Assembly: GCF_025526975.1 (NCBI RefSeq) | Contig: NW_026515689.1 | Location: 372,001-436,000 of the forward strand | Reading direction: 5' to 3' | DNA: 64,000 bases | From: Fimicolochytrium jonesii | Lineage: Eukaryota | Shown here: piece after piece, positions 6,034-51,912 of the stretch | Layout of the letters: the number at the start of each line of letters is the position of its first letter | How positions within the stretch are numbered: position 1 is the first letter of the stretch | Position numbers and translations under genes: made by a program | Notes under the pieces: model-generated | Seen by the model: the letters and a program-made list of their open reading frames with translations, nothing else | Databases searched by the model: none | What the model was told of the DNA's origin: nothing

Positions 6034-7115
6034 GTGAAGTCAGCGGCAGCAACATCTTGTCCCAGTTTGGAAATGGCGTTGGAAGATGAAGCGGACCTTG
6101 CCGCGGAGATCGCAGCCCAGGAGGCAGCGCGCGCAGCGCAGGCAAAGAGAATGAAGGAGCTGAGAGCCCAGGCCGCAAAACCCAAGCGAGCCGCTGCCAC
6201 GTCGTCGTCGTCTACGCCAACAGCCGAGTCCACTCACCGCCGGCAGCCTGCGACCGCAGCCCGCGAGCATTCCGAGCTCGCTACAAAGAGGAGAAAGGCG
6301 GTGGAGCTGGATGAGGAGGTGGAGAGTCGTCGTGGGAGCAGGAGGGGCAGTCGAGCGCAATCACCGGTGGAGGCGGGCATATCGTTGTCGGACGATGAAG
6401 GGGTGGTGGAGGTGGTGGAACGCGCGAAGCCGGAGGGGAAGCACCCTGTTGCCGGGGTGGACGACGCGGAAGACGAGGACTATAAGCCTCCTGCTGGAAG
6501 GAAGAGGAGGTGCGAAGGCCGCGTTCTACCCCGCGTTCGGTCGCCAGGAAATGTCCGCCTTTACGACGTCGGCTCCCTCGCTCACAACGACAGCACTCCC
6601 GACGCCAGAAGAGTTCTTCAACTCTACCAGCACCGAGAAAGGCACGAAAGAAGAACTAAGTACAGTCAAGTACAATAATGCAGGTTACCCACGTCGTCGA
6701 CGGTCGGCCCCCGGAGCAAACAGCCACGGGCGAGATGCCGACATTGCCTCCGACATTTTGACAACCCCAGCACTCGACAACCACACCAGCACACAATGGG
6801 GAGAGTACTGATTTCCCAGAAGAGATCAGCCATACTTGCCTGGGGTTGTCAAAATGTCGAAGAATGTCGGCCTCTTGGCAATCTTGGCGACGGCGTTGGC
6901 TGTTTGCTCTGGGGGCCGACCGTCGCCTCACGTGGGTGACCTGCTTTATTGTACTTGACTGTATATATATTGCAGAGTTTCTTCGCGCAAACAACAAGGT
7001 ATCCTTGCATTCTCTTGCGCGCGTTTTTCCGATCGTCCCTTCTCATGTATTTTTTGTAGGAGACTTGGATCGACAAATCCCAAAATCTTTTCATAATATC
7101 TGGTTATTGTGACTA
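6034..7115 (+). pseudogene. Disrupted low-complexity hypothetical gene interrupted by a MITE
   Basis: Charged A/E/R-rich ORF 6034-6678 with an apparent frame change near 6510. Removing the MITE and one TA restores EELSIYIAEFLRANNK, followed by a GT-AG intron-like segment. Confidence 0.4.
6663..6961. mobile_element. Tc1/mariner-type MITE (299 bp) with long imperfect TIRs and TA TSD
   Basis: TA|CAGTCAAGTACAATAA...TTATTGTACTTGACTG|TA; the arms stay complementary for about 110 bp (…GACATTTTGACAACCCCAG / CTGGGGTTGTCAAAATGTC…). Confidence 0.9.
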
Positions 7116-7195: not shown

Positions 7196-8038
7196 TTGAC
7201 TGCGTACCTAGACGTGCGAAAAGCTGGATCCGACGTCACGAGTGGCTCTACCCGTCCTGACGGCAACCAGTGTTCCATCGATCCGGGGAGCAGAGTGCCA
7301 TGGACGTGTTTCGACGCGCATCGCCGCAGGTTTTACGACATCTACCCAGATTTGGTGGACAAACTCTCCAACCTTCACAACGAAATCACCCTGCCAAGCC
7401 GCAAGGATTCGGGAGCGACCATGCCGGGAGGTCGTCCGGCTCACCGGAGGCGCAAGAGGCAGAGAAAACGAGCGAAGGGGAAGAAACGGAAGAAGAAACG
7501 GCACTGGCGAAAGAACCGCGAACGTCACATATCCAGGCTATACGACCGGATGAAGACCATTGTGAGCGCACGGGGCCAAGCGCACGGGGCGTTTGCCAAC
7601 CATCCCGTCCGATGTTATGACATGGTCGTCCTCCCCGAATTCATGACGGCAGGGATGGTCCGGAAGCCACGAAAGCAGCTCAAACTCCCGCCCTTGCGAG
7701 AACGAGAGGCGTTGAACGCACCCCCCAAGGAGGGCAGGTTCACGCTCCACAAGACCACTCGCAAGGCGATGCGATGGATATCGCACCACGCCTTTCGCCA
7801 GAGGATGTTCGCCAAGGCCTTGGCCGATCCTCGCGAGACGAAGGATGTCCTGTGCACGACGGAGGAGTACACCACCAAACAATGTCCTTTCTGCGACCTT
7901 GTTCACCACAAAATTGGATCGAACAAGGTGTTCAAGTGCGGGAACGAAGCGTGCGGCTTCGAGGGTAGGAGGGACAACGTTGGGTGTTTCAATGTCGGAC
8001 TTCGAGCGATCGTCAAAAACGAAATAGTGATGGTATGA
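7196..8038 (+). CDS. Fanzor2/TnpB-like RNA-guided endonuclease, RuvC plus zinc-finger half (5'-truncated, no ATG)
   Basis: RuvC-I SIDPGSR (D at 7280), YDMVVLPEF, LHKTTRKAMRWISHHAFRQRM, displaced RuvC-II EEYTTK (7862-), zinc finger CPFC...CGNEAC, RuvC-III RRDNVGCFNV (D at 7973). Confidence 0.88.
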   Translation: MTAYLDVRKAGSDVTSGSTRPDGNQCSIDPGSRVPWTCFDAHRRRFYDIYPDLVDKLSNLHNEITLPSRKDSGATMPGGRPAHRRRKRQRKRAKGKKRKKKRHWRKNRERHISRLYDRMKTIVSARGQAHGAFANHPVRCYDMVVLPEFMTAGMVRKPRKQLKLPPLREREALNAPPKEGRFTLHKTTRKAMRWISHHAFRQRMFAKALADPRETKDVLCTTEEYTTKQCPFCDLVHHKIGSNKVFKCGNEACGFEGRRDNVGCFNVGLRAIVKNEIVMV

Positions 8039-39281: not shown

Positions 39282-40205
39282 ATGTCAGAACGCAAAGTCC
39301 TCAACAAGTACTTCCCGCCGGACTTCGATCCCAGCAAAATTCCCCGCCGAAAGCTTCCCAAAGACCAGCAGCACAAAGTCCGTCTCATGACGCCCTTCTC
39401 CATGCAATGCACCATCTGCGGCGAATACGTCTACAAAGGAAAAAAGTTCAACGCTAGGAAGGAACGGGTGGACGGGGAGAACTATCTCGGAATTCAGGTC
39501 TTCCGTTTCTACATCCGCTGTCCACGGTGCTCCGGCGAGATTACGTTCAAAACGGACCCAAAGAACGCCGATTACGTCGCTGAACATGGTGCCCAGCGAA
39601 ACTTTGAGCCATGGCGTGACGATGGGGACGCTACGGAGGCGGAGAAAGCCGAGCGGGCTCAGCAGGAGGAGAACAACCCGATGGCTGCGCTTGAGAACCG
39701 GACGCTCGACTCGAAGCGAGAGATGGATATCCTAGACGCTTTGGATGAAATTCGGATGCGGAATGCAAAGAACGAGAGGGTGGATAGCGATGGGGTGTTG
39801 CAGAATATCATTTTGACGGGAATAGAGGAAAGGGAACTGGCAAAGAGGCTGCAGGAGGAGGAGGACGATAGGTTGGCGCAGAGCATATTCCATAGCGCTG
39901 ATGGGCAGAGCGTCAAACGGATCTTGGACGAGGACGAAGAGGAGGCGGAGCTGGAACGGGCGGCAAAAAGGCAGGCACTGCTGAACGAGGGTCAGGACGA
40001 TTTCATTCATGCAGGCCAGAAAAAAAAGACTGCGGCGTCTGAATTTGGGATTGTGGTCAAGGAGAAGCCGGCGCCGTCGATAGGTGTAGTACTGAAGAAG
40101 GCTGAACCTGCAAAACCGAGCCAGGCAGCTGGCCCTCAGGCTCCGTCAGCACTTGCAATACTTGGCGGGGCTTACAGCGATTCGGACGACGAAGATGATT
40201 CGTAG
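39282..40205 (+). CDS. YJU2: Splicing factor Yju2/CCDC94
   Basis: [70 protein letters not shown]; single exon. Confidence 0.96.
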
Positions 40206-41273: not shown

Positions 41274-42429
41274 CTTGACAAAGGCTTGACGGAATAGTTG
41301 GACCGGGTAACGATATGCCCTTGATGCTGGCTTCCGTACGCGGTCTCGATCGTAAAATACTCCTCACAGTTGAAATGGAGCTGGTCTGTATTGGAGCCGA
41401 CGGATGGTGTTTGGGAAGTTCAAAGCGCAGGCTTGTCCGAATTCAATCCGAGTCTCGATTCATTTTGACAGCGGGGCTACGTAATCATCCTAGGCTCGCG
41501 CGTTGCTGTTCCCACGCGTGAGATCGTAAGCAATTTTGCAAATGTAACTCCGCTTTGGGCAGGCACACGGACCTGCGTGCATCGCAAGATATGCGACTTT
41601 ACTTCTGTATGTTGTACCTTTACGCAGTATTACACTTTCCTTCTCTCTTATAATCCGGCCACAAGGCTGAGACAGTAGGTAAGCTTCTTCCTTCATATCG
41701 GCGCCTGCCGGGGCAACTTTCTTCTTCCCATCAGCCAATCAGTCGCAAAGGCCGGACAACAGGTACGTTCTCCTGTGTAGGTCCAGTGTAGCCCTCGCGC
41801 CCTTTCATCTTTCGTTTCTTCTTCTGATCAATTGCTCGCGTTCTCGGATTCTCCAAGAATGAGCAATGTTTGAGCTTCCCTCACTGCCTCAGGTCGGTGG
41901 CAAGATTCAAACAATGGGTAACATTCCCTTCCCAGGCACGTCAATAACCATTATATGCGCCCCTTTTCCCTCTAACCGTTGATTCTCTTCTTTCTGTTCT
42001 CAGACCCCTCGCGACACTTTTACGGAGGTATGTGCGCCTATCAAATTGACTTTCTTCTCTTTTCTTGCTTATCGTTTTTAGGTCTCGCCTACTCATCCAC
42101 ATAATTGGAGGTAGTGAGCGAGTAACGAGAATATGAGGATATTCGCCGGTCCCAACGACGGGACTTGTTGCGCACAAGACGCATTGGGTGAATAACCTCG
42201 ATCAAAACAATACTTGATGACATCGCGGGATATCAAGGTAAGCCTGCCGAATACTGATTTTCGCTTTTTGTAGGAGTGGGTGTCGACCTCGTTGTGGCAC
42301 GGAAAGGTTTGGCAAGCACGGCAGTTGAGCGCGGTTGACGCCCGACGGTTCAACGCAGAATGGGCATTCCCGTTGGGACGCGGCCATGCGACAGGACGGG
42401 GGGGCACAGCGTTTTGCGAGGTGACTGTA

Positions 42430-42742
42430 CAGTGCTGTTCATAAAGCAAGACCGCTGTCAATTTGATTCACCGGCCCCCTGGACGCGCCTCTCCATATAG
42501 ATCTACGCCTAGTATCTAGTGAATCCTCCTCTAGCTGCTATGACTGCCGCTATACGCCGGGGCATGCTCGACACAAGTTTTTCTAGCACATCTGGCTCAA
42601 TATCCTGAAATGTCTGCTGTGCAATGGCCTCTAGCTGCTCTCGAGATCTCGCTCGGGTTGTCCGGAGCGTCCGGCCGGCGACGCGGTCGAGCACTTCTCT
42701 GACGGCACTGTCAAATGCGGTCTTGCTTTATGAACAGCACTG
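42430..42742 (-). mobile_element. Non-autonomous, internally deleted Tc1-like transposon (313 bp)
   Basis: TA|CAGTGCTGTTCATAAAGCAAGACCGC...GCGGTCTTGCTTTATGAACAGCACTG|TA (26-bp perfect TIR). Retains the Tc1 transposase C-terminus LEKLVSSMPRRIAAVIAARGGFTRY* (42509-42694). Confidence 0.93.
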
Positions 42743-43920
42743 TACACCGCTTACCACTTTTGTCACCATTGGCGCTCTGACGGTTGGTTAGTGGCTTGGG
42801 TTGCTTGCTTGGGGCGGTTTTCAGCACCACGTGCTGGTTGGTGGCAATTGGGTGGCTTATTTGAGGGCAGGCAGTGCCGTGTCCAAAAGCGTTTGACAGG
42901 CGGGCGGTGTGGGGCGCTTTTCCATCTTCAACGACGACTGTTTCTTTGCAATGGCAATGTACTGTACACGCACCACATGTACGAGCGGCGCGGCAACGGA
43001 CGGATGCGCGGGGTCAACATGCCGCGGTGCCGATCAGAGTGCAACCGCTTGATCCTGCCACGCGGACCAACACGTTCGCATGGCAACGTGACGACGCGGA
43101 AACGTTTGGTACGCTGCTGTTTGATTTGGGAATGGCGGTGGCTGCATCTGAGGGTGCGCCAGCGGACGAAGCAAAGCCCACGGAGCTCAGCGAATGTGGT
43201 GGGCGCTTACTCAGGGGGCGGAGTATAATTTTGAGCCTACTGAGAGGCTTGACGAGCGTGACTTGGAATGGTATCAGTCTGAATATGTCTGGAGCAACTC
43301 AGGGGTTTACCTAAGAGAAGACGCAGGGTGTCACTATGGGGCGGTCACGGGCAGGACAAGGATCGGGTCGAGGGCTGGTGGCGCCGCTGGGACCAGCCTT
43401 TGTCAAAGATGATGATCCGCGTAAAGCGGGGCAGTTTATTTCGCCAAAACGTGTGCGGATGGGGCGTCGCTCGCAGGTTGGACGTTCCAGAAGTGGGGCA
43501 ACGAGCGGGCGGTCTCGTTCTCGCGCTCTGCAGTGTCGACATGCTTTGCTATTCCCTATGAAAAACACTGATCCATATCCACCGCAACGAGACATGTGTA
43601 GGCGTGTAGGTGGGTTTCGACGATACTCAGCCTTTACATTGGAAATTCTTTTAGGTGGCCTTTCAGTAGGATGGCTGTTTCACAAGAGGGAGTTTTGGAT
43701 ATCAGGCTGGGCTCGGATCACCCTCCGGACGGCGTAGATAGCCATGCCCGTCAATTTTTGACGAGGGTAGCTTTTAGTCAGTTTCATTCGCAATTATTTT
43801 AGAGGAGGGGTTGGTTTGTGTGAGGATTTCGAGAGTTCCCATCAGAGCCATCCACTGACACACTGGCAGATCGAGCGAGATGGCCTGCGATGATAGAGGT
43901 GAGTGGTTATGCTACGTACT

Positions 43921-44081: not shown

Positions 44082-44284
44082 GAGCTAGCCAATTCGCGTT
44101 ACATTGTTTCGGAGCCTTCTCCTCGTCGGCCGTCTTGGCCTTCGTTGTAAAGGCTGCCGTGACATTCTCTAGAACAGCATCAGTAACCCACTTTGCAAAA
44201 GAACCGCTCATGTCAGTAACGACTCTGCACGTGCAGCAGTGGCCCATTGGTCCAAAGTTTGTTTTCGCCGTCCCGCCAACTTTG

Positions 44285-45125
44285 AGAGTTCGAAAGAGAC
44301 GTCGTTGGAAACTTTGCTGCATTCGTTGCCCCGGCCAAGGACCCGCCTCTTCCCAACCTCGGTGTCCCAGAGTTTGAAGTTGGGAAGCAAGCCGACCCCA
44401 GCGTGCGCCTCCCCCGGCAAGTGTTTCGCTGCCAAATGCACGAAGGTGTCCGGTATTGGCGAGAGCTCTTAGACATCGACACCGTTGAGTTCGGCGCTGA
44501 CGCCGATGCGCAGCTCGTTCTCTCCAATCACACGCCACCGACCAGCGACGCAGAGAGCGATAAAGATACCGACACCACGGTTCCTCCCTTCTCGGATATT
44601 CTGAAAACGATCCGATCATTTCTGATTGCCAGGCCGGGCGTATGGCGCGTTTTGCTTTTCGGTTCCTGTTTGAAAGACCCGAACGTTGCTCGGGATATCG
44701 ACATTTCCATAGAATGTCGCTTCGCTCAAGATCCCAGTGCATTAGTGGATTGGGCAGAGAGTTTGAGTGATCAGGTTGGGAAGCCCGTTGAAGTTATTGA
44801 CTTGGCAGGCTCGTTTAACGACGACATGCTCGCCATCCGCCGGAACGGTCGGTACATCGAACCGCATGGAGGACTATCGGACGACCCAGATTTCAAAAAC
44901 CACCAGGAGCTCATGCTACGCGCTGCACGACGCATGGGTGAGCTACGCGACCAGCTCCATCGTTCGTGGACGGAGACTCTTTTCGCCCCACCGCTGATTC
45001 ACCCGGCCTGGCCAAGTGTCTCGAAATGTTCTACCAGCAGTTTGAGAACTATGCGGAACGCTTTTTGTTTAAGTATAAGAATCTTCCGCGGTCTAACGGG
45101 GGAGAATCGCACAAAGCTATCGTGA
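44285..45125 (+). CDS. Minimal nucleotidyltransferase (MntA/Pol-beta superfamily) domain; middle frame of a frameshifted MNT-HEPN fusion
   Basis: PGVWRVLLFGSCLKDPNVARDIDISIE (GS at 44661, DxD at 44694)...LSDQVGKPVEVIDL...IRRNGRYI matches the prokaryotic MNT antitoxin pattern. Frame open from 44285; no introns. Confidence 0.85.
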
Positions 45126-45361
45126 ATGCCTTCAGAGACGGTGGTGTCGCATATGTCAACAGCGGCGACGTGTTGTCGATTCCTCCCATGCCAAACGACA
45201 CTTGGACTGCGCTCGACGACCTACGCCGTTTTCGTCATTTTTCGCGGAAACAATATGTGGACTATTACACGCCGGAACAGCTGTTCGCCAAGCTGCCCGG
45301 GCTTGACCAAATAGTTCTGTGGACCAGATCGGCCGTTCTCGCTGTTGGACATTCATTTTAG
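44966..45361 (+). CDS. HEPN domain, HepT-like ribonuclease toxin type; C-terminal part of a frameshifted MNT-HEPN fusion
   Basis: LAKCLEMFYQQFENYAERF...GGESHKAIV...TWTALDDLRRFRHFSRKQY...PEQL matches the MNT-associated HepT-like pattern (LxxFYxxxE...H...LDExRRFRHxxRxxY). Confidence 0.8.
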   Translation: MDGDSFRPTADSPGLAKCLEMFYQQFENYAERFLFKYKNLPRSNGGESHKAIVNAFRDGGVAYVNSGDVLSIPPMPNDTWTALDDLRRFRHFSRKQYVDYYTPEQLFAKLPGLDQIVLWTRSAVLAVGHSF

Positions 45362-45544: not shown

Positions 45545-47033
45545 GATGGTTAGACGACGATGGGCAGCGCAGCGACCACTGGTGGATCGGTAACCGGCTC
45601 GATCTTGTCCCACCGGAGCATCCGATCGCACCATTCGTTTGACACCTTGGTATCCTTGGGGCTGTGCGCGCGCGTCTTAAGGAAAGGGAGTTTGCGTTGA
45701 CCGGAAGGGTCGGGCTTCAAGACCGGATTCATTTCGGGCACATTCTTGAAGGTGCGGGGCACTTCGTCTTTATTGCAGGACTCGTCGTGATACTCTTGAA
45801 GAAGTTGTTTTAACTCGGCAACGACCGCAGGTGGTAAATCTTCGGCAACCTGGAAGGTGCGAGTGCCGACCTTGAGTTGGCGCATGGGTGTAGGGCGTAT
45901 GGATCGCCCAGTGATCGACTCGATAGTGATGCCGACGACTTCGGCGGCTCCGGCAGCGTCTGGTCCGGATGACTTGACTGCCCGCATGCGTGACCTTTCG
46001 ATCAAGACCGCCGGTAATAGCAACCAGTATCCTCCGGGCCTTCCCAGCGCGCGCCCTCAACGCCGCGACCCCGCTTGCTTTCGATGCGGACAATCCGGCC
46101 ATATCTTCCGGGATTGCCAATCAACCACGAAATTGGATACCTGGCGTGGATACCGGTTAGCTGCTGCCTTTTATCCTGACGACGTTCATGAGTACGACGA
46201 AGATCATACCGACTACTATTCAATGGTTCTCCACGATGTGGGCCATTATTACGCGGATCCTGAGGAGTCGGATTTTCCCAATGGGAGCTCGGAGTAGGGG
46301 ACTCCGAACTCCCGCCATACGATCCTCCGGATGATCCCCTCCCCATCACGTTGGCGGTGTTCATGGCCGAAAAGCGAAAAGCCGACGAGATCCCGGAACC
46401 AGCGTCTAAACGATTGAACACCTCGTGCATCCACTACCGTTCCCTCCACGGCCTCCGTTAAAGATGCGCCCCTCTGCTCCTCGTCCTCCTGGCCTTCCGC
46501 CACCGCCGGCACGGTTACCTCCTCGCCAACCGGGTGGTTGTGGAGCTCCCTTGCGTTGTCCCACCATCAAAGTCGGTATGATTCAACACGCCCATGAGTA
46601 CCCCGATGGAGATCGATCCCCGCGAGAAGCCCGGTCAGGCCTCTAAGATGCCGTCGTCATCAACGGTCCCGTCCCGAAAGTCCCCCTCACCACCCCCTCC
46701 GCGTGCCGATTCTCCGTTGGGTGGTGATGACCCGCGCATCCCAGCACCCATTCGGGCGTTGATCGACAAGAAGAACTTCGACATCGTCAACTTCTTGAAT
46801 GAAACGGAAGTCCGCGGCTTAACCCTAGCGGACCTTCTTCAGTGGAGCCCCGCCTTACGCGAACGTCTTCGTGACGCTATGAAACTCGTTCCCAAGGTGC
46901 GCCGCGCTGCGCTGTGCTTTCGAGAGCCGCTGCTAGGGGCCTGGCATCCCGATGCAGAGCCCCCGGATGACACACTCGAGGGACGTCTCGACTTTCATCT
47001 CAAGGCCGACAGTGACCGTCTCCACATCCTTCT
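45545..47033. mobile_element. Degenerate, rearranged Ty3/gypsy LTR-retrotransposon relic
   Basis: Plus strand: gag zinc knuckle CFRCGQSGHIFRDC (~46075) and LADLLQWSPALRERL (pre-protease region). Minus strand 45550-45920: pre-RT/RT start (LKQLLQEYHD...KIEPVTDPPVVAALPIVV). Confidence 0.75.
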
Positions 47034-47284
47034 TGTCGGGGATATCTCATATTCACTTGTATTTCATATTACACTTCTTTACTTCTACACGATCCGAGAC
47101 CCGGGCTGGCCACCCAAGCTCTCGGTCATACATTACATAAGGCGCCAAGCCTCACAGAAGCCACGCAAGCCCCACTGGCAGCCATATATAAAGCTGTCGG
47201 TCGTACTTTTTTCTTCACTTCAATACACTGTTCTCAGCCCTCTCAGAAAGGCCCATTATCGTCTACGTTTCCTCTGACGTTACA
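47034..47284 (+). mobile_element. Solo LTR (251 bp)
   Basis: TGT...ACA termini, perfect 5-bp TSD CTTCT (47029-47033 / 47285-47289), internal TATATAAA near 47185. Confidence 0.82.
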
Positions 47285-49632: not shown

Positions 49633-51912
49633 CTAAGTCCACCACGCAGTCCACCAGCTCGCCTTCGCCTCATCCTTCTCAACCGGCCTTACAACAATCC
49701 TATGCAGCACCCTATCCTCCCCGACCGACGCCTCCGTCGACGGGGCCCAAATCGAGTTCCAAAATCCGCTGTTTCCCGGCTTTCCAGCGCCTTCGACAGC
49801 ACCCTGGTACGCTGGATCTAGTTTGTAGTACAACGTCTGCCTCGTTGCGTCGTACATCCATTCGCCGTCGGAGACTTCGACGTGGACCGTGGCGCTTGGG
49901 TGTGTGTAGTGGAAGCCCGGGACGAAGATTTCAGTGATGCGGGTGATGTCCACTGTATCTGCCGTCGCGGTCTGATTCACGCTGGAACTCAGCCGAGGGG
50001 TGGTGAATTCAAGCACGAATTCCAACGTGTTGATATCAAACCGCATGAAGACCGGTTCCCCCGCGATCTTGGCCGCGTACGGTCTGACGACGGCGTCCAG
50101 CGCGCGTCCGCCAACGTGGTGTTCGTGGAGTCGATGGCCTTCTTCGTAGTGCCGTTCGGTGATGTCGAATGGTGCGGCGTGGGTTATCAGTTCTGGTTCT
50201 TCGGCGCTCATCGCGGATGAGGCAGCCCCGCCTGTGGATGACGCTTTCGCGGTCACGGCGGGGATACGCGAGAAGATGGAAAAGTCTTCCCCATTCCAAT
50301 GGTCCCCGTACACATTATCATTGTGCGGGTTGTAATTCCACAATGTAAAATTGACCAAACTCCCCTCCATAGCGCTCAACATCGCGTTCAGGAAGATGGT
50401 ATGCTGGGTGTAATCCCCCGTATCGAACGCGTGTTTCGAGTTGATATCCATCGCCAGTCCGCATTCCCCAAACACGATCGCCTTCTCGGGGTACAGTTTC
50501 CGCCCTGCGTCTGTGATGGACTTGATCTGGCCCATGTAGTTCTTGTTGGTGCCGGTCACACCGACGTAGGTTGCTGTGAAGAGGTTCAATGCCCCCTGCT
50601 GCAGTTTCCGCACGTCGTGGGTGACCAGGCTGTTGAAGGCTTTGTTGAAGAGGACTTTGAGATCGTACCAGTGCGGCGCGTACACCAATTGTGGGCTGTC
50701 GTTCTCTTTCGATATGGGGAAAGCGGCTTCGTTGGGGACGGGCTCGAAGAAGACGAAGAGGGATGGGTTGGCGGCCACGATGGCGTCCGTGTATCTCTTG
50801 ATGAAGGGGACGTAGCAGTCCTGGTCGAAATTGACCCGTTCGCCTGTGCTCGGCACGCGCGCGAAGTAGTTTGCGTTGAGACACCGCGGTACACCGTCAG
50901 GTCCAATGTCCCATACGCCATGCTGCTTCCATACACATTCCCGCCCAGGCAACCACGCAGACGCCTTCCCCTGGTTCAAGAGCCGCTTTCCTGCCCGCCT
51001 GGTGGGCCACGGCCAGCTCCGCACCCAGAAATCCACTTCCTGAGGGATGCCCGATGCGAGCGCCATGGACTGGAATGCGGACGGCACTGGTCCGATATGC
51101 AGGTCCTTGAGCGGATCGAATGCGTGTACGCTTTCCAGCCCAATAAAGCCGGGGTGGGGCTCGTTAATGACTTCAAAACCGATGACGCACGGCACGTTCC
51201 GGAGCCGCTTTGCTAGATGCTGGAAACTCGCGATGAAATGCCGTTGAAGGTAGTCTTGCGGATGCTCGCCTTTGTAAATCGCTTTGGGAGCGAAGATCTT
51301 CCCACCGAAGAATATCGTAAACATGGTTGCTGACGCCAGTTTCTGATAGTTCGTCGGCCATGCAGAGTGTCCAGAATCCTCTGGCTGGGCACATTGGTGC
51401 ACATACGCTGCATTCGTGTCCATGAACTTGGTCACATCCATTCCAACGACTTCAAATGTCCACCCAGGTGCTCCACTCCCTCCCGAAAACCTGCTCCACG
51501 TATCCTGGTGCGGATCAATAAAGCAATGAATGCCATACTTCTCCGCAACAGCCAGCAACTCAATCAAGTAATCTATAAACTCCTCATCGTACGCGCCCGG
51601 CCCGCTATGCTCCAACGCTTCCCACGTCACACACAGCCGGACAAACGTTAGGCCCCAAGATCGCAGTCGTGAAAAGTGCTGGTCCGCCTCGTCGAGAGGG
51701 AACGGGCGTCCGATAAAGGATACGTTCCTGTGCTCGAAGAAGCCTTCGCTGAGGTGAGTGGAACCTGGCGGGCTGGTGGGCAGCTTGGAGTTTCCTGATG
51801 CATTGACCCCGCGCAATTGAAGGACGCGGCCGTGTTGGTCGCGGAAATGGCCGTTTTGTTGCTTGAGAGGGCCTGACCACTCGTGGGCCTTGCCGAGCTT
51901 GGTGTGCCACAT
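49633..51912 (-). CDS. GH5 endoglycoceramidase-related protein (EGCrP/Egh1-like glucosylceramidase or steryl-beta-glucosidase); possible short 5' exon upstream
   Basis: LRGVN, SFIGRPFPLDEADQHFSRLRSWG, IDPHQDTWSRFSGGSGAPGWT, acid/base INEPH, YAPHWYD, nucleophile FGECG, GDHWNGEDFSI, GGRALDAVVRPY. Confidence 0.92.
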   Translation of the reverse strand: MWHTKLGKAHEWSGPLKQQNGHFRDQHGRVLQLRGVNASGNSKLPTSPPGSTHLSEGFFEHRNVSFIGRPFPLDEADQHFSRLRSWGLTFVRLCVTWEALEHSGPGAYDEEFIDYLIELLAVAEKYGIHCFIDPHQDTWSRFSGGSGAPGWTFEVVGMDVTKFMDTNAAYVHQCAQPEDSGHSAWPTNYQKLASATMFTIFFGGKIFAPKAIYKGEHPQDYLQRHFIASFQHLAKRLRNVPCVIGFEVINEPHPGFIGLESVHAFDPLKDLHIGPVPSAFQSMALASGIPQEVDFWVRSWPWPTRRAGKRLLNQGKASAWLPGRECVWKQHGVWDIGPDGVPRCLNANYFARVPSTGERVNFDQDCYVPFIKRYTDAIVAANPSLFVFFEPVPNEAAFPISKENDSPQLVYAPHWYDLKVLFNKAFNSLVTHDVRKLQQGALNLFTATYVGVTGTNKNYMGQIKSITDAGRKLYPEKAIVFGECGLAMDINSKHAFDTGDYTQHTIFLNAMLSAMEGSLVNFTLWNYNPHNDNVYGDHWNGEDFSIFSRIPAVTAKASSTGGAASSAMSAEEPELITHAAPFDITERHYEEGHRLHEHHVGGRALDAVVRPYAAKIAGEPVFMRFDINTLEFVLEFTTPRLSSSVNQTATADTVDITRITEIFVPGFHYTHPSATVHVEVSDGEWMYDATRQTLYYKLDPAYQGAVEGAGKPGNSGFWNSIWAPSTEASVGEDRVLHRIVVRPVEKDEAKASWWTAWWT

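What the first reader, a model, noticed from the sequence alone, without database searches (positions are those of the whole stretch)
44210..45361. Prokaryote-type MNT-HEPN toxin-antitoxin module as one intronless fused gene in a chytrid-like fungus
Seen: an MNT domain (FGS-x9-DID, KPVEVIDL) directly followed by a HepT-like HEPN domain (LEMFYQQFE...SHKAIV...LDDLRRFRHFSRKQY). It has no introns although most neighbouring genes do, and it sits in a transposon-rich island. Established: MntA/HepT pairs are bacterial/archaeal two-gene TA systems in which the MNT AMPylates a Tyr just after the RxxxxH motif of the HEPN RNase to silence it; the equivalent Tyr is present here (45254-45256). Inference: a horizontally acquired operon was converted to one eukaryote-compatible polypeptide. 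It could be a self-inhibited RNase switch for antiviral defence, cell death/incompatibility or addiction of a mobile island. I do not know of a described fungal system of this architecture.
Basis: partly seen in the sequence, partly recalled or inferred. Interest (0 to 1): 0.9.

Follow-up and report, generated by a model that had tools for sequence, protein, structure and literature searches.

The report
Jumping fungal toxin–antidote gene, broken copy
This fungus carries a frameshifted copy of a three-part gene (a predicted ubiquitin-like cap, a nucleotide-transferring antidote enzyme and an RNA-cutting toxin-type domain of bacterial kind) that is intact in related chytrids, likely moved between chytrid species recently, and is predicted to be a single-protein poison-plus-antidote switch.

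Summary
The domains are real: an MNT (GS-x9-DxD; Pfam Polbeta) and a HepT-like_2 HEPN with the acceptor Tyr at 45254. But the window copy is not one ORF: it is broken at about 44296 and 44960. Intact or near-intact fusions exist in Geranomyces variabilis (90% identical), a degenerate one in Thoreauomyces, others in unnamed assemblies, with fragments in a moss and a liverwort. Sampled prokaryotic relatives are separate genes without it. The canonical RxxxxH His is Lys here; that position varies in the parent Pfam family, whose other invariant polar residues are mostly kept, so RNase activity is open. Against another chytrid's contigs the gene shows dS 0.11 while neighbouring YJU2 shows about 1.4, and it lies elsewhere there: a likely recent cross-species move. 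The HEPN half is damaged in 4 of 6 chytrid copies. Best reading (0.5): a mobile, self-inhibited toxin-antidote protein like bacterial FhepTA, which hosts keep disabling; the window holds a dead copy. Main rival: an AMPylating enzyme with an inert HEPN. New variant of a known kind.

The parts
44210..44296 (+). First coding piece: ATG and start of the predicted ubiquitin-like (beta-grasp) domain; ends at the first frame break
   Evidence: tblastn 28 of 29 identical to P0005 residues 1-29
44298..44960 (+). Second coding piece: rest of the N-terminal domain, Pro/Ser/Thr/acidic linker, MNT domain and first HEPN helix; ends at the second frame break
   Evidence: 91% identical to P0005 31-251; Polbeta E 3.6e-5
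44210..44528 (+). Predicted ubiquitin-like / beta-grasp N-terminal domain (interrupted by the first break)
   Evidence: Model of P0002 residues 1-109: Z 7.2-7.9 to kindlin chain 5xpy_A, bacterial multi-ubiquitin proteins, 2d5g, SOSEKI polymerising domain and MAP2K5 PB1; middling Z, fold only
44529..44597 (+). Low-complexity linker rich in P, E, S, T, D
   Evidence: 46-77% P/E/S/T/D in 8 family members; pLDDT under 50 at P0002 117-125
44598..44870 (+). MNT nucleotidyltransferase domain: GS-x9-DxD (44658-44702) and third acidic residue (E, 44790-44792)
   Evidence: (alignment to 5yep_A)
44901..45358 (+). HepT-like_2 HEPN domain (first helix in the second piece, remainder in the third)
   Evidence: PF20797 E 1.8e-6; Z 11.5 to 7ae2_A
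44960..45361 (+). Third coding piece: HEPN core to the stop codon
   Evidence: 95% identical to P0005 252-379
45233..45256 (+). HEPN motif R-H-F-S-R-K-Q-Y; Lys at the canonical His position, acceptor Tyr at 45254-45256
45050..45051 (.). TA site, empty in the window, where contigs of runs X1 and X2 carry an element with terminal inverted repeats that truncates the HEPN
   Evidence: loose ends; the two ends agree in 22 of 27 letters as inverted repeats; junction reads as the C-terminus of P0004
42426..42746 (.). Context: 321-bp non-autonomous transposon-like element, perfect 30-bp terminal inverted repeat
45800..46297 (+). Context: gag-like zinc-knuckle ORF remnant
   Evidence: zf-CCHC E 3.2e-5

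Best explanation
The window holds a twice-frameshifted, likely dead copy of a mobile gene whose intact form is predicted to be a single-chain toxin-antidote switch: a HEPN ribonuclease held silent by its own nucleotidyltransferase. By analogy with bacterial FhepTA (inferred, not tested), the MNT would AMPylate the Tyr after the HEPN motif and block HEPN dimerisation; loss of the N-terminal part, likely steered by the ubiquitin-like cap and the unstructured linker, would free the HEPN to cut RNA and stop or kill cells or zoospores that no longer make fresh protein. The gene likely crossed between chytrid species recently, and hosts repeatedly disable it. Shown: domains, frame breaks, intact homologues, divergence contrast, different genomic place in the compared organism. 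Predicted: the ubiquitin-like fold. Inferred: RNase activity, AMPylation, proteolytic activation, selfish or defensive role.
For: Architecture: model pLDDT 78.9, pTM 0.72 with matches to MntA, HepT-type HEPN and beta-grasp folds. MNT catalytic residues: D-x-D invariant in 11 of 11 aligned rows; GS-x9-DxD and an acidic third residue in all 6 chytrid copies. HEPN: the window frame keeps the polar residues nearly invariant in 31 prokaryotic PF20797 proteins (Y, E, His of the WH site, F-R-H, R, Y; each 28-31 of 31); the 20 residues around the motif are 17 of 20 identical to P0022, although P0002 and P0022 share only 58 of 149 HEPN residues. One member on an early branch, P0007, has the full R-H-x-x-x-H-x-Y. 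Damage pattern: HEPN broken or degenerate in 4 of 6 chytrid copies (window frameshifts; P0004 truncated by an insertion; P0003 model lacks the His/Tyr stretch; P0026 model lacks about 30 aa and has R-H changed to Q-Y). Mobility: 58 differences in 1200 bases against X1 versus 56 in 271 for YJU2; dS 0.11 versus about 1.4, Fisher p 1e-8; the gene is on neither the 33-kb X1 contig bearing YJU2 nor the 17-kb contig bearing GH5. dN/dS 0.48, p 0.03. Precedent: the FhepTA HEPN half is toxic alone, silenced by the MNT, and degraded from the N-terminus (PMC13000451).
Against: The canonical His of RX4HXY is Lys in the window, P0002, P0005, P0026 and the P0006/P0022 group; in the prokaryotic pairs whose MNT is nearest, 5 of 6 HEPN partners keep His. 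A second site, His in 25 of 31 prokaryotic rows, is Glu in all 9 fused-family rows that cover it. P0008 and P0011 have Thr for the motif Arg. PMC3710099 states that HEPN domains fused to MNTs typically lack RNase residues and are most likely inactive. I found no experimental test of the PF20797 family as an RNase in the passages read. The first frame break lies upstream of the MNT, and the two bryophyte fragments are damaged in the MNT too, so the toxin-first asymmetry is not clean; the gaps in P0003 and P0026 are gene-model features that I could not check in DNA. dS for YJU2 rests on 41 codons of one gene. No source reads were available to verify the breaks.
Confidence: 0.5

Rival explanations
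1. Domesticated AMPylating enzyme: the HEPN is a catalytically inert substrate-binding or regulatory domain, the MNT is the working enzyme and modifies other proteins or small molecules, and the ubiquitin-like domain is a targeting header, as in Crinkler-type proteins.
For: His-to-Lys in the chytrid and P0022 clade, Arg-to-Thr in P0008/P0011; MNT is the best conserved domain (50 of 96 versus 58 of 149 for HEPN between P0002 and P0022); statement on fused HEPNs in PMC3710099; Crinkler-type proteins pair a Ubl header with enzyme domains of prokaryotic origin and occur in free-living eukaryotes (PMC5289972).
Against: The motif and acceptor Tyr segment is the second most conserved 20-residue window between P0002 and P0022 (15 of 20), as expected if it is the MNT's own substrate; the sixth position is Asn in 14, His in 13, Ser, Gln and Lys in 1 each of 30 free-standing prokaryotic PF20797 proteins, so loss of His does not mark the fused state; a useful enzyme would not be expected to be broken in most copies; Pfam Crinkler (PF20147) did not hit any member at E up to 1.
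Confidence: 0.27
2. Functionless passenger: an old gene that moved with neighbouring mobile DNA and is decaying everywhere in chytrids.
For: 4 of 6 chytrid copies and both bryophyte copies are damaged; dN/dS of 0.48 is only moderate; mobile-element remnants lie on both sides.
Against: Full-length open frames persist at 30-40% identity with invariant catalytic aspartates; flanks diverge far faster than the coding region (alignment to X1 stops at 44191 and 45388); contigs of both halves are in X2, a run whose YJU2 and GH5 contigs lack stretches present in X1 and so look spliced.
Confidence: 0.1
3. The two frame breaks are assembly errors and the gene is intact and working in this organism (a rival only to the 'dead copy' part).
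For: No reads of the source were available (best share of words 0.14); motifs are otherwise unspoiled and there is no in-frame stop in the three pieces.
Against: Neighbouring long ORFs of 306, 758 and 912 codons are unbroken; neither break sits in a long single-letter run; independent disruptions occur in relatives.
Confidence: 0.1
4. Bacterial or cross-culture contaminant joined into the contig.
For: Both enzyme domains are of prokaryotic type; no long read bridging the gene to YJU2 or GH5 was seen.
Against: Homologues on 334-652 kb contigs of several G. variabilis assemblies and in Thoreauomyces; in X1 the gene's contigs have depth 358-368 against 354-358 for host-gene contigs; GC and GC3 lie within the range of window genes; 0 of 33 prokaryotic loci hold both domains in one ORF.
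Confidence: 0.03

Closest known systems
FhepTA, fused MNT-HEPN toxin-antitoxin of Shewanella mobile elements (PMC13000451)
   Same: MNT then HEPN in one chain; GS-xn-DxD; Tyr two residues after the motif's sixth position; mobile setting.
   Different: FhepTA is about 276 aa, bacterial, keeps R-phi-xxx-H and is close to HepT/MntA of the DUF86 type; this family has a HepT-like_2 (PF20797) HEPN, an added predicted ubiquitin-like domain and linker, Lys for His in chytrids, and its named members are eukaryotic.
Type VII HepT/MntA two-gene systems (PMC7641770) and the PF20797-associated MNT/HEPN gene pairs
   Same: Same folds (Z 11.3 and 11.5); the nearest sampled prokaryotic pairs have a 96-105 aa MNT, mostly GS-x9-DxD, followed by a HEPN with FRHFF-x-H-x-Y.
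   Different: Two genes, no N-terminal domain; signature RX4HXY and GSX10DXD not met letter for letter here.
Spok spore killers of Podospora (PMC6660238)
   Same: Functional analogue only: one protein holds a predicted nuclease that kills and a modifying enzyme that protects; spreads by cross-species transfer; natural alleles lose killing and keep resistance.
   Different: Unrelated domains (PD-(D/E)XK nuclease and kinase); ascomycete meiotic drive is shown there, nothing of the kind is shown here.
Crinkler / CR proteins (as reviewed in PMC5289972)
   Same: Ubiquitin-like N-terminal header joined to an enzyme of prokaryotic origin; patchy presence in eukaryotes.
   Different: No Pfam Crinkler hit; no MNT-HEPN C-terminus named in the passages read; the primary paper was not held.
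Sacsin (PMC3710099)
   Same: Eukaryotic protein with both a ubiquitin-like and a HEPN domain.
   Different: Large multi-domain chaperone-type protein with a HEPN-T (PF05168) domain; not this family.

Membership tests
Type VII HepT/MntA (Class I) | MNT with GSX10DXD and third carboxylate | tested here: met
   GS-x9-DxD plus Glu at the position of MntA D71; spacing is 9 not 10, but 8-12 occurs in prokaryotic partners
Type VII HepT/MntA (Class I) | HEPN with RX4HXY | tested here: not met
   R-H-F-S-R-K-Q-Y: Lys at the His position in the window and chytrid copies; met only by P0007
Type VII HepT/MntA (Class I) | Acceptor Tyr after the motif | tested here: met
   TAT at 45254-45256; Tyr in 9 of 10 fused-family rows, the tenth has a gap
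Type VII HepT/MntA (Class I) | Two adjacent genes, HEPN of PF01934 or PF08780 | tested here: not met
   One gene in intact homologues; HEPN is PF20797
Type VII HepT/MntA (Class I) | HEPN toxicity neutralised by AMPylation | not testable with these tools
   needs bench assay
FhepTA (fused MNT-HEPN) | MNT followed by HEPN in one chain | tested here: met
   P0002, P0005, P0006, P0007, P0008, P0022; not in the window copy, which is broken
FhepTA (fused MNT-HEPN) | R-phi-xxx-H-x-Y retained | tested here: not met
   Lys for His in chytrid copies
FhepTA (fused MNT-HEPN) | MNT blocks HEPN dimerisation; redox cysteines in HEPN | not tested
   no dimer model of the full chain was made
Pfam HepT-like_2 (PF20797) | Score over the curated cut-off of 27 bits | tested here: met
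   window last frame 28.4 bits; P0006, P0007, P0008, P0011, P0021, P0022 36.5-44.2 bits; full-length P0002 and P0005 fall under it
Pfam HepT-like_2 (PF20797) | Near-invariant polar residues of sampled prokaryotic members | tested here: met
   Y, E, H, F-R-H, R, Y all kept in the window frame; the LH His (25 of 31) is Glu
Ubiquitin-like / beta-grasp fold | beta-beta-alpha-beta-beta-beta topology and structural match | tested here: inconclusive
   topology in the model; 7 beta-grasp rows at Z 7.2-7.9 over residues 1-109, a range the tool calls middling; domain not folded alone; no Pfam hit
Crinkler / CR header | PF20147 match, LxLFLAK and HVLVVVP motifs | tested here: inconclusive
   no PF20147 hit at E up to 1 (the model is in the library); resemblance of the strand pattern is recalled, no profile-profile test was possible
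Spok-like single-gene killer | Killing of non-carrier spores and self-resistance | not testable with these tools
   analogy only

The most novel reading that the evidence does not exclude
A bacterial type VII toxin-antitoxin pair has become a eukaryotic single-gene selfish killer or defence switch: fused, capped with a ubiquitin-like domain that hands activation to the proteasome, and still jumping between chytrid species and once between fungi and bryophytes, while hosts knock it out by frameshift and transposon insertion.
Probability: 0.3. Interest if true: 0.87.

Novelty: new variant of a known kind. Interest (0 to 1): 0.68.

Why it matters
Toxin-antitoxin modules are held to be prokaryotic. 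A three-domain fused version with named members in chytrids and bryophytes, a likely recent cross-species move and repeated knock-outs would be a working eukaryotic descendant of a type VII system and a candidate single-gene drive or defence element in early-diverging fungi, where I know of none (own knowledge). Natural variants with His (P0007), Lys (P0002, P0022) and no Arg (P0008, P0011) make the open question of which residues a HepT-like_2 RNase needs directly testable. If the HEPN is inert, it is still an undescribed eukaryotic AMPylating enzyme family.

Tried and rejected
No whole genome is held for the window, so paralogues in the same organism were not searched. Sequencing runs: only two holders at share 0.14, no RNA holder on record; neither is the source, so the breaks are unverified. 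Introns as the cause of the frame changes: rejected, relatives align codon for codon across both places. Viral vehicle: three scans of viral contigs and the viral structure library (no match at E under 0.001) found no family member; two metagenome scans and two plasmid searches were blank; these scans find close relatives only. Self-association of the N-terminal domain: no verdict. First structure job on 3 rows was poor (pLDDT 49) and was not used. ESM Atlas on P0003 gave only weak structural rows, among them archaeal clusters carrying both Polbeta and HepT-like families; the N-terminal domain could not be searched there. P0015 and P0019 are unrelated repeat proteins and were dropped. Codon adaptation was uninformative (off-frame controls scored as high). 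MNT tree does not resolve one origin for all 14 rows; donor not identifiable, only two prokaryotic phyla were sampled. Exact look-up of the window's YJU2 and GH5 proteins returned nothing. Earlier findings of the scan: nothing in 3 look-ups. Paper searches with no description of this family; supplement searches of PMC3710099 (only 4,325 characters held, so its additional file may bear on this unseen) and PMC13000451 gave no hit.

Full report
Observation. They lie in different frames: the MNT in an ORF spanning 44286-45125 (Pfam Polbeta E 3.6e-5) and the HEPN in 44942-45361 (HepT-like_2 E 1.8e-6), with the ATG at 44210 in a third piece. tblastn with intact relatives shows three collinear pieces, 91-97% identical to P0005, and breaks at about 44296 and 44960. 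Contigs of two public runs are in frame across both places, so these are not introns. The host context is fungal: YJU2 and a sterylglucosidase-type GH5 flank the region, both as single ORFs.

The family. Word-index searches found fused proteins in Geranomyces variabilis: P0002 (388 aa, 90-92% to the window frames), P0003 (356 aa, 50%), and in P0002's cluster P0004 (286 aa) and P0005 (610-aa model running on into a thioesterase); later P0026 from Thoreauomyces humboldtii. A profile of 3 sequences against 1.84 billion representatives gave 17 hits at E up to 0.001, 8 at 1e-10 or better. These added full-length proteins from unnamed assemblies (P0006 with four cluster members, P0007, P0008), partial ones (P0010, P0011), and fragments from the liverwort Calypogeia fissa (P0009) and the moss Ceratodon purpureus (P0012) on megabase contigs. 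The weak tail was short MNTs, two longer MNT-bearing proteins and two unrelated repeat proteins. The origin of the unnamed members is not known; they could include prokaryotes.

Anatomy. A model of P0002 on 11 rows reached pLDDT 78.9 and pTM 0.72. Residues 129-256 match MntA (5yep_A, Z 11.3, rmsd 6.0, 116 aligned; 1wot Z 10.6, rmsd 2.9), 232-385 a HEPN toxin (7ae2_A, Z 11.5, rmsd 3.2, 134 aligned), and 1-109 seven beta-grasp rows at Z 7.2-7.9. The last is a fold-level prediction at middling Z; no Pfam family hits it. A linker of 46-77% P/E/S/T/D joins it to the MNT.

Catalytic residues. D-x-D is invariant in 11 of 11 rows, and the window has Glu at the place of MntA's third carboxylate. The HEPN motif is R-H-F-S-R-K-Q-Y, against RX4HXY in characterised HepT (PMC7641770, passages). 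To judge the Lys I took the 30 best-scoring PF20797 loci of a 251-genome sample of one phylum plus one more. In 30 of these 31 proteins that reach the motif the sixth position is Asn 14, His 13, Ser 1, Gln 1, Lys 1, while R, the next His and the Tyr are kept in 30 of 31 rows and the fifth-position Arg in 28 of 31. The window frame keeps all of those. Against this, in the 10 best MNT matches from a second phylum (20 of 301 genomes matched), 6 have a HepT-like_2 partner and 5 of the 6 keep His; an upstream His (25 of 31) is Glu throughout the fused family; and P0008 and P0011 lack the Arg. Activity is therefore open. The motif segment is under strong constraint: 17 of 20 identical between the window and P0022.

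Origin. No prokaryotic locus had both domains in one ORF (0 of 33) and the N-terminal profile had no match worth listing in either set of loci. The 10 fused-family HEPN rows form one side of a long branch, 100/100, against 28 prokaryotic rows (three short rows left out), with P0007 on the earliest branch under a midpoint root. In the MNT tree chytrids, the P0022 group and the bryophyte fragments group at 96/93; P0007, P0008 and P0011 sit apart without firm support. P0003 from G. variabilis pairs with the Thoreauomyces protein (100/98) rather than with other G. variabilis copies. The acquisition from prokaryotes is old; the donor cannot be named from two phyla.

Recent movement. Runs X1 and X2 (organism A) hold the gene at 58 differences in 1200 bases, but YJU2 at 56 differences and 2 gaps in 271 bases, and only short pieces of GH5 align at 80%. 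From the listed differences (39 of the 40 shown for the gene, 22 of the 40 shown for YJU2; both tables were cut), dS is 0.11 for the gene and about 1.4 for YJU2 (p 1e-8); dN/dS for the gene is 0.48. In X1 the 33-kb contig with YJU2 runs 11.9 kb on in the direction of the gene without containing it, whereas in the window the gene starts 4 kb after YJU2. Shared ancestry cannot make alleles younger than the species split, so transfer or introgression is the likely cause (inference; one yardstick gene). Depth in X1 equals that of host-gene contigs, which argues against contamination there. X2 lacks stretches that X1 has inside YJU2 and GH5, so it looks spliced, and it holds both halves of the gene; that is a weak hint of transcription in organism A, as the run's type is a guess.

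Repeated damage. In X1 and X2 an element with terminal inverted repeats sits at the TA at 45050-45051; the junction reads as the end of P0004. With the window's frameshifts and the gaps or changes in P0003 and P0026, 4 of 6 chytrid copies have a damaged HEPN while the MNT motifs stand in all 6; P0005 has one motif change (Arg to Gly) and P0002 keeps the signature. The window's first break also cuts off the MNT from the ATG, though an internal ATG at 44436 gives an MNT-only frame (P0001).

Mechanism. In FhepTA the HEPN half alone is toxic, the MNT AMPylates the Tyr and blocks HEPN dimers, and activation likely needs degradation from the N-terminus (PMC13000451: abstract, introduction, one results part and passages). 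I infer the same switch here, with the ubiquitin-like cap and loose linker as the eukaryotic route to that degradation. Cross-species spread and loss of the killing half recall Spok killers (PMC6660238, passages). The main rival, an AMPylating enzyme with an inert HEPN, rests on the Lys and on the statement in PMC3710099 (passages and section 5 part 1) that fused HEPNs are usually inactive; a Crinkler-like header reading (PMC5289972, passages; the primary paper was not held) belongs with it and was not supported by Pfam.

Novelty. Fused MNT-HEPN systems are described in bacteria, and PMC13000451 says in one sentence that fusions also exist in eukaryotes, without naming fungi (0 occurrences). 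Seven paper searches and two supplement searches showed no three-domain family of this kind; most subscription journals are not covered. Verdict: real, new variant of a known kind, window copy likely dead; interest 0.68.

Noticed in passing
window 7196-8038 (+) and 6661-6963: ORF with a Cas12f1-like TNB zinc-finger domain (PF07282, E 5.9e-7), suggesting a Fanzor/TnpB-type remnant, just downstream of a degenerate 300-bp inverted repeat (69% identity).
   Followed up: no
window 42426-42746: 321-bp element with a perfect 30-bp terminal inverted repeat that begins and ends at TA, holding a short ORF end that recalls a Tc1/mariner transposase (recalled; no Pfam hit).
   Followed up: partly
window 45800-47277 (+): Gag-like zinc-knuckle ORF and a following 231-codon frame without Pfam hit; likely an LTR-retrotransposon remnant; no LTR pair found.
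   Followed up: partly
window 39415-39496 and 51270-51499: Run X1 has extra stretches of about 70-80 bases inside YJU2 and GH5 that the window and run X2 lack: likely introns present in organism A and absent in the window organism.
   Followed up: no
P0005 residues 417-556: One G. variabilis gene model continues from the HEPN into a thioesterase domain (E 3e-20); may be an annotation join or may place the gene beside a secondary-metabolite locus.
   Followed up: no
P0009, P0012: Fragments of the same family in a liverwort and a moss genome, grouping with the unnamed P0022 set: a possible fungus-bryophyte exchange.
   Followed up: partly
L044:247-2603 (+): Prokaryotic 375-codon frame with a C-terminal MNT and an unknown N-terminal part, overlapping a recombinase-like ORF (read by eye).
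   Followed up: no
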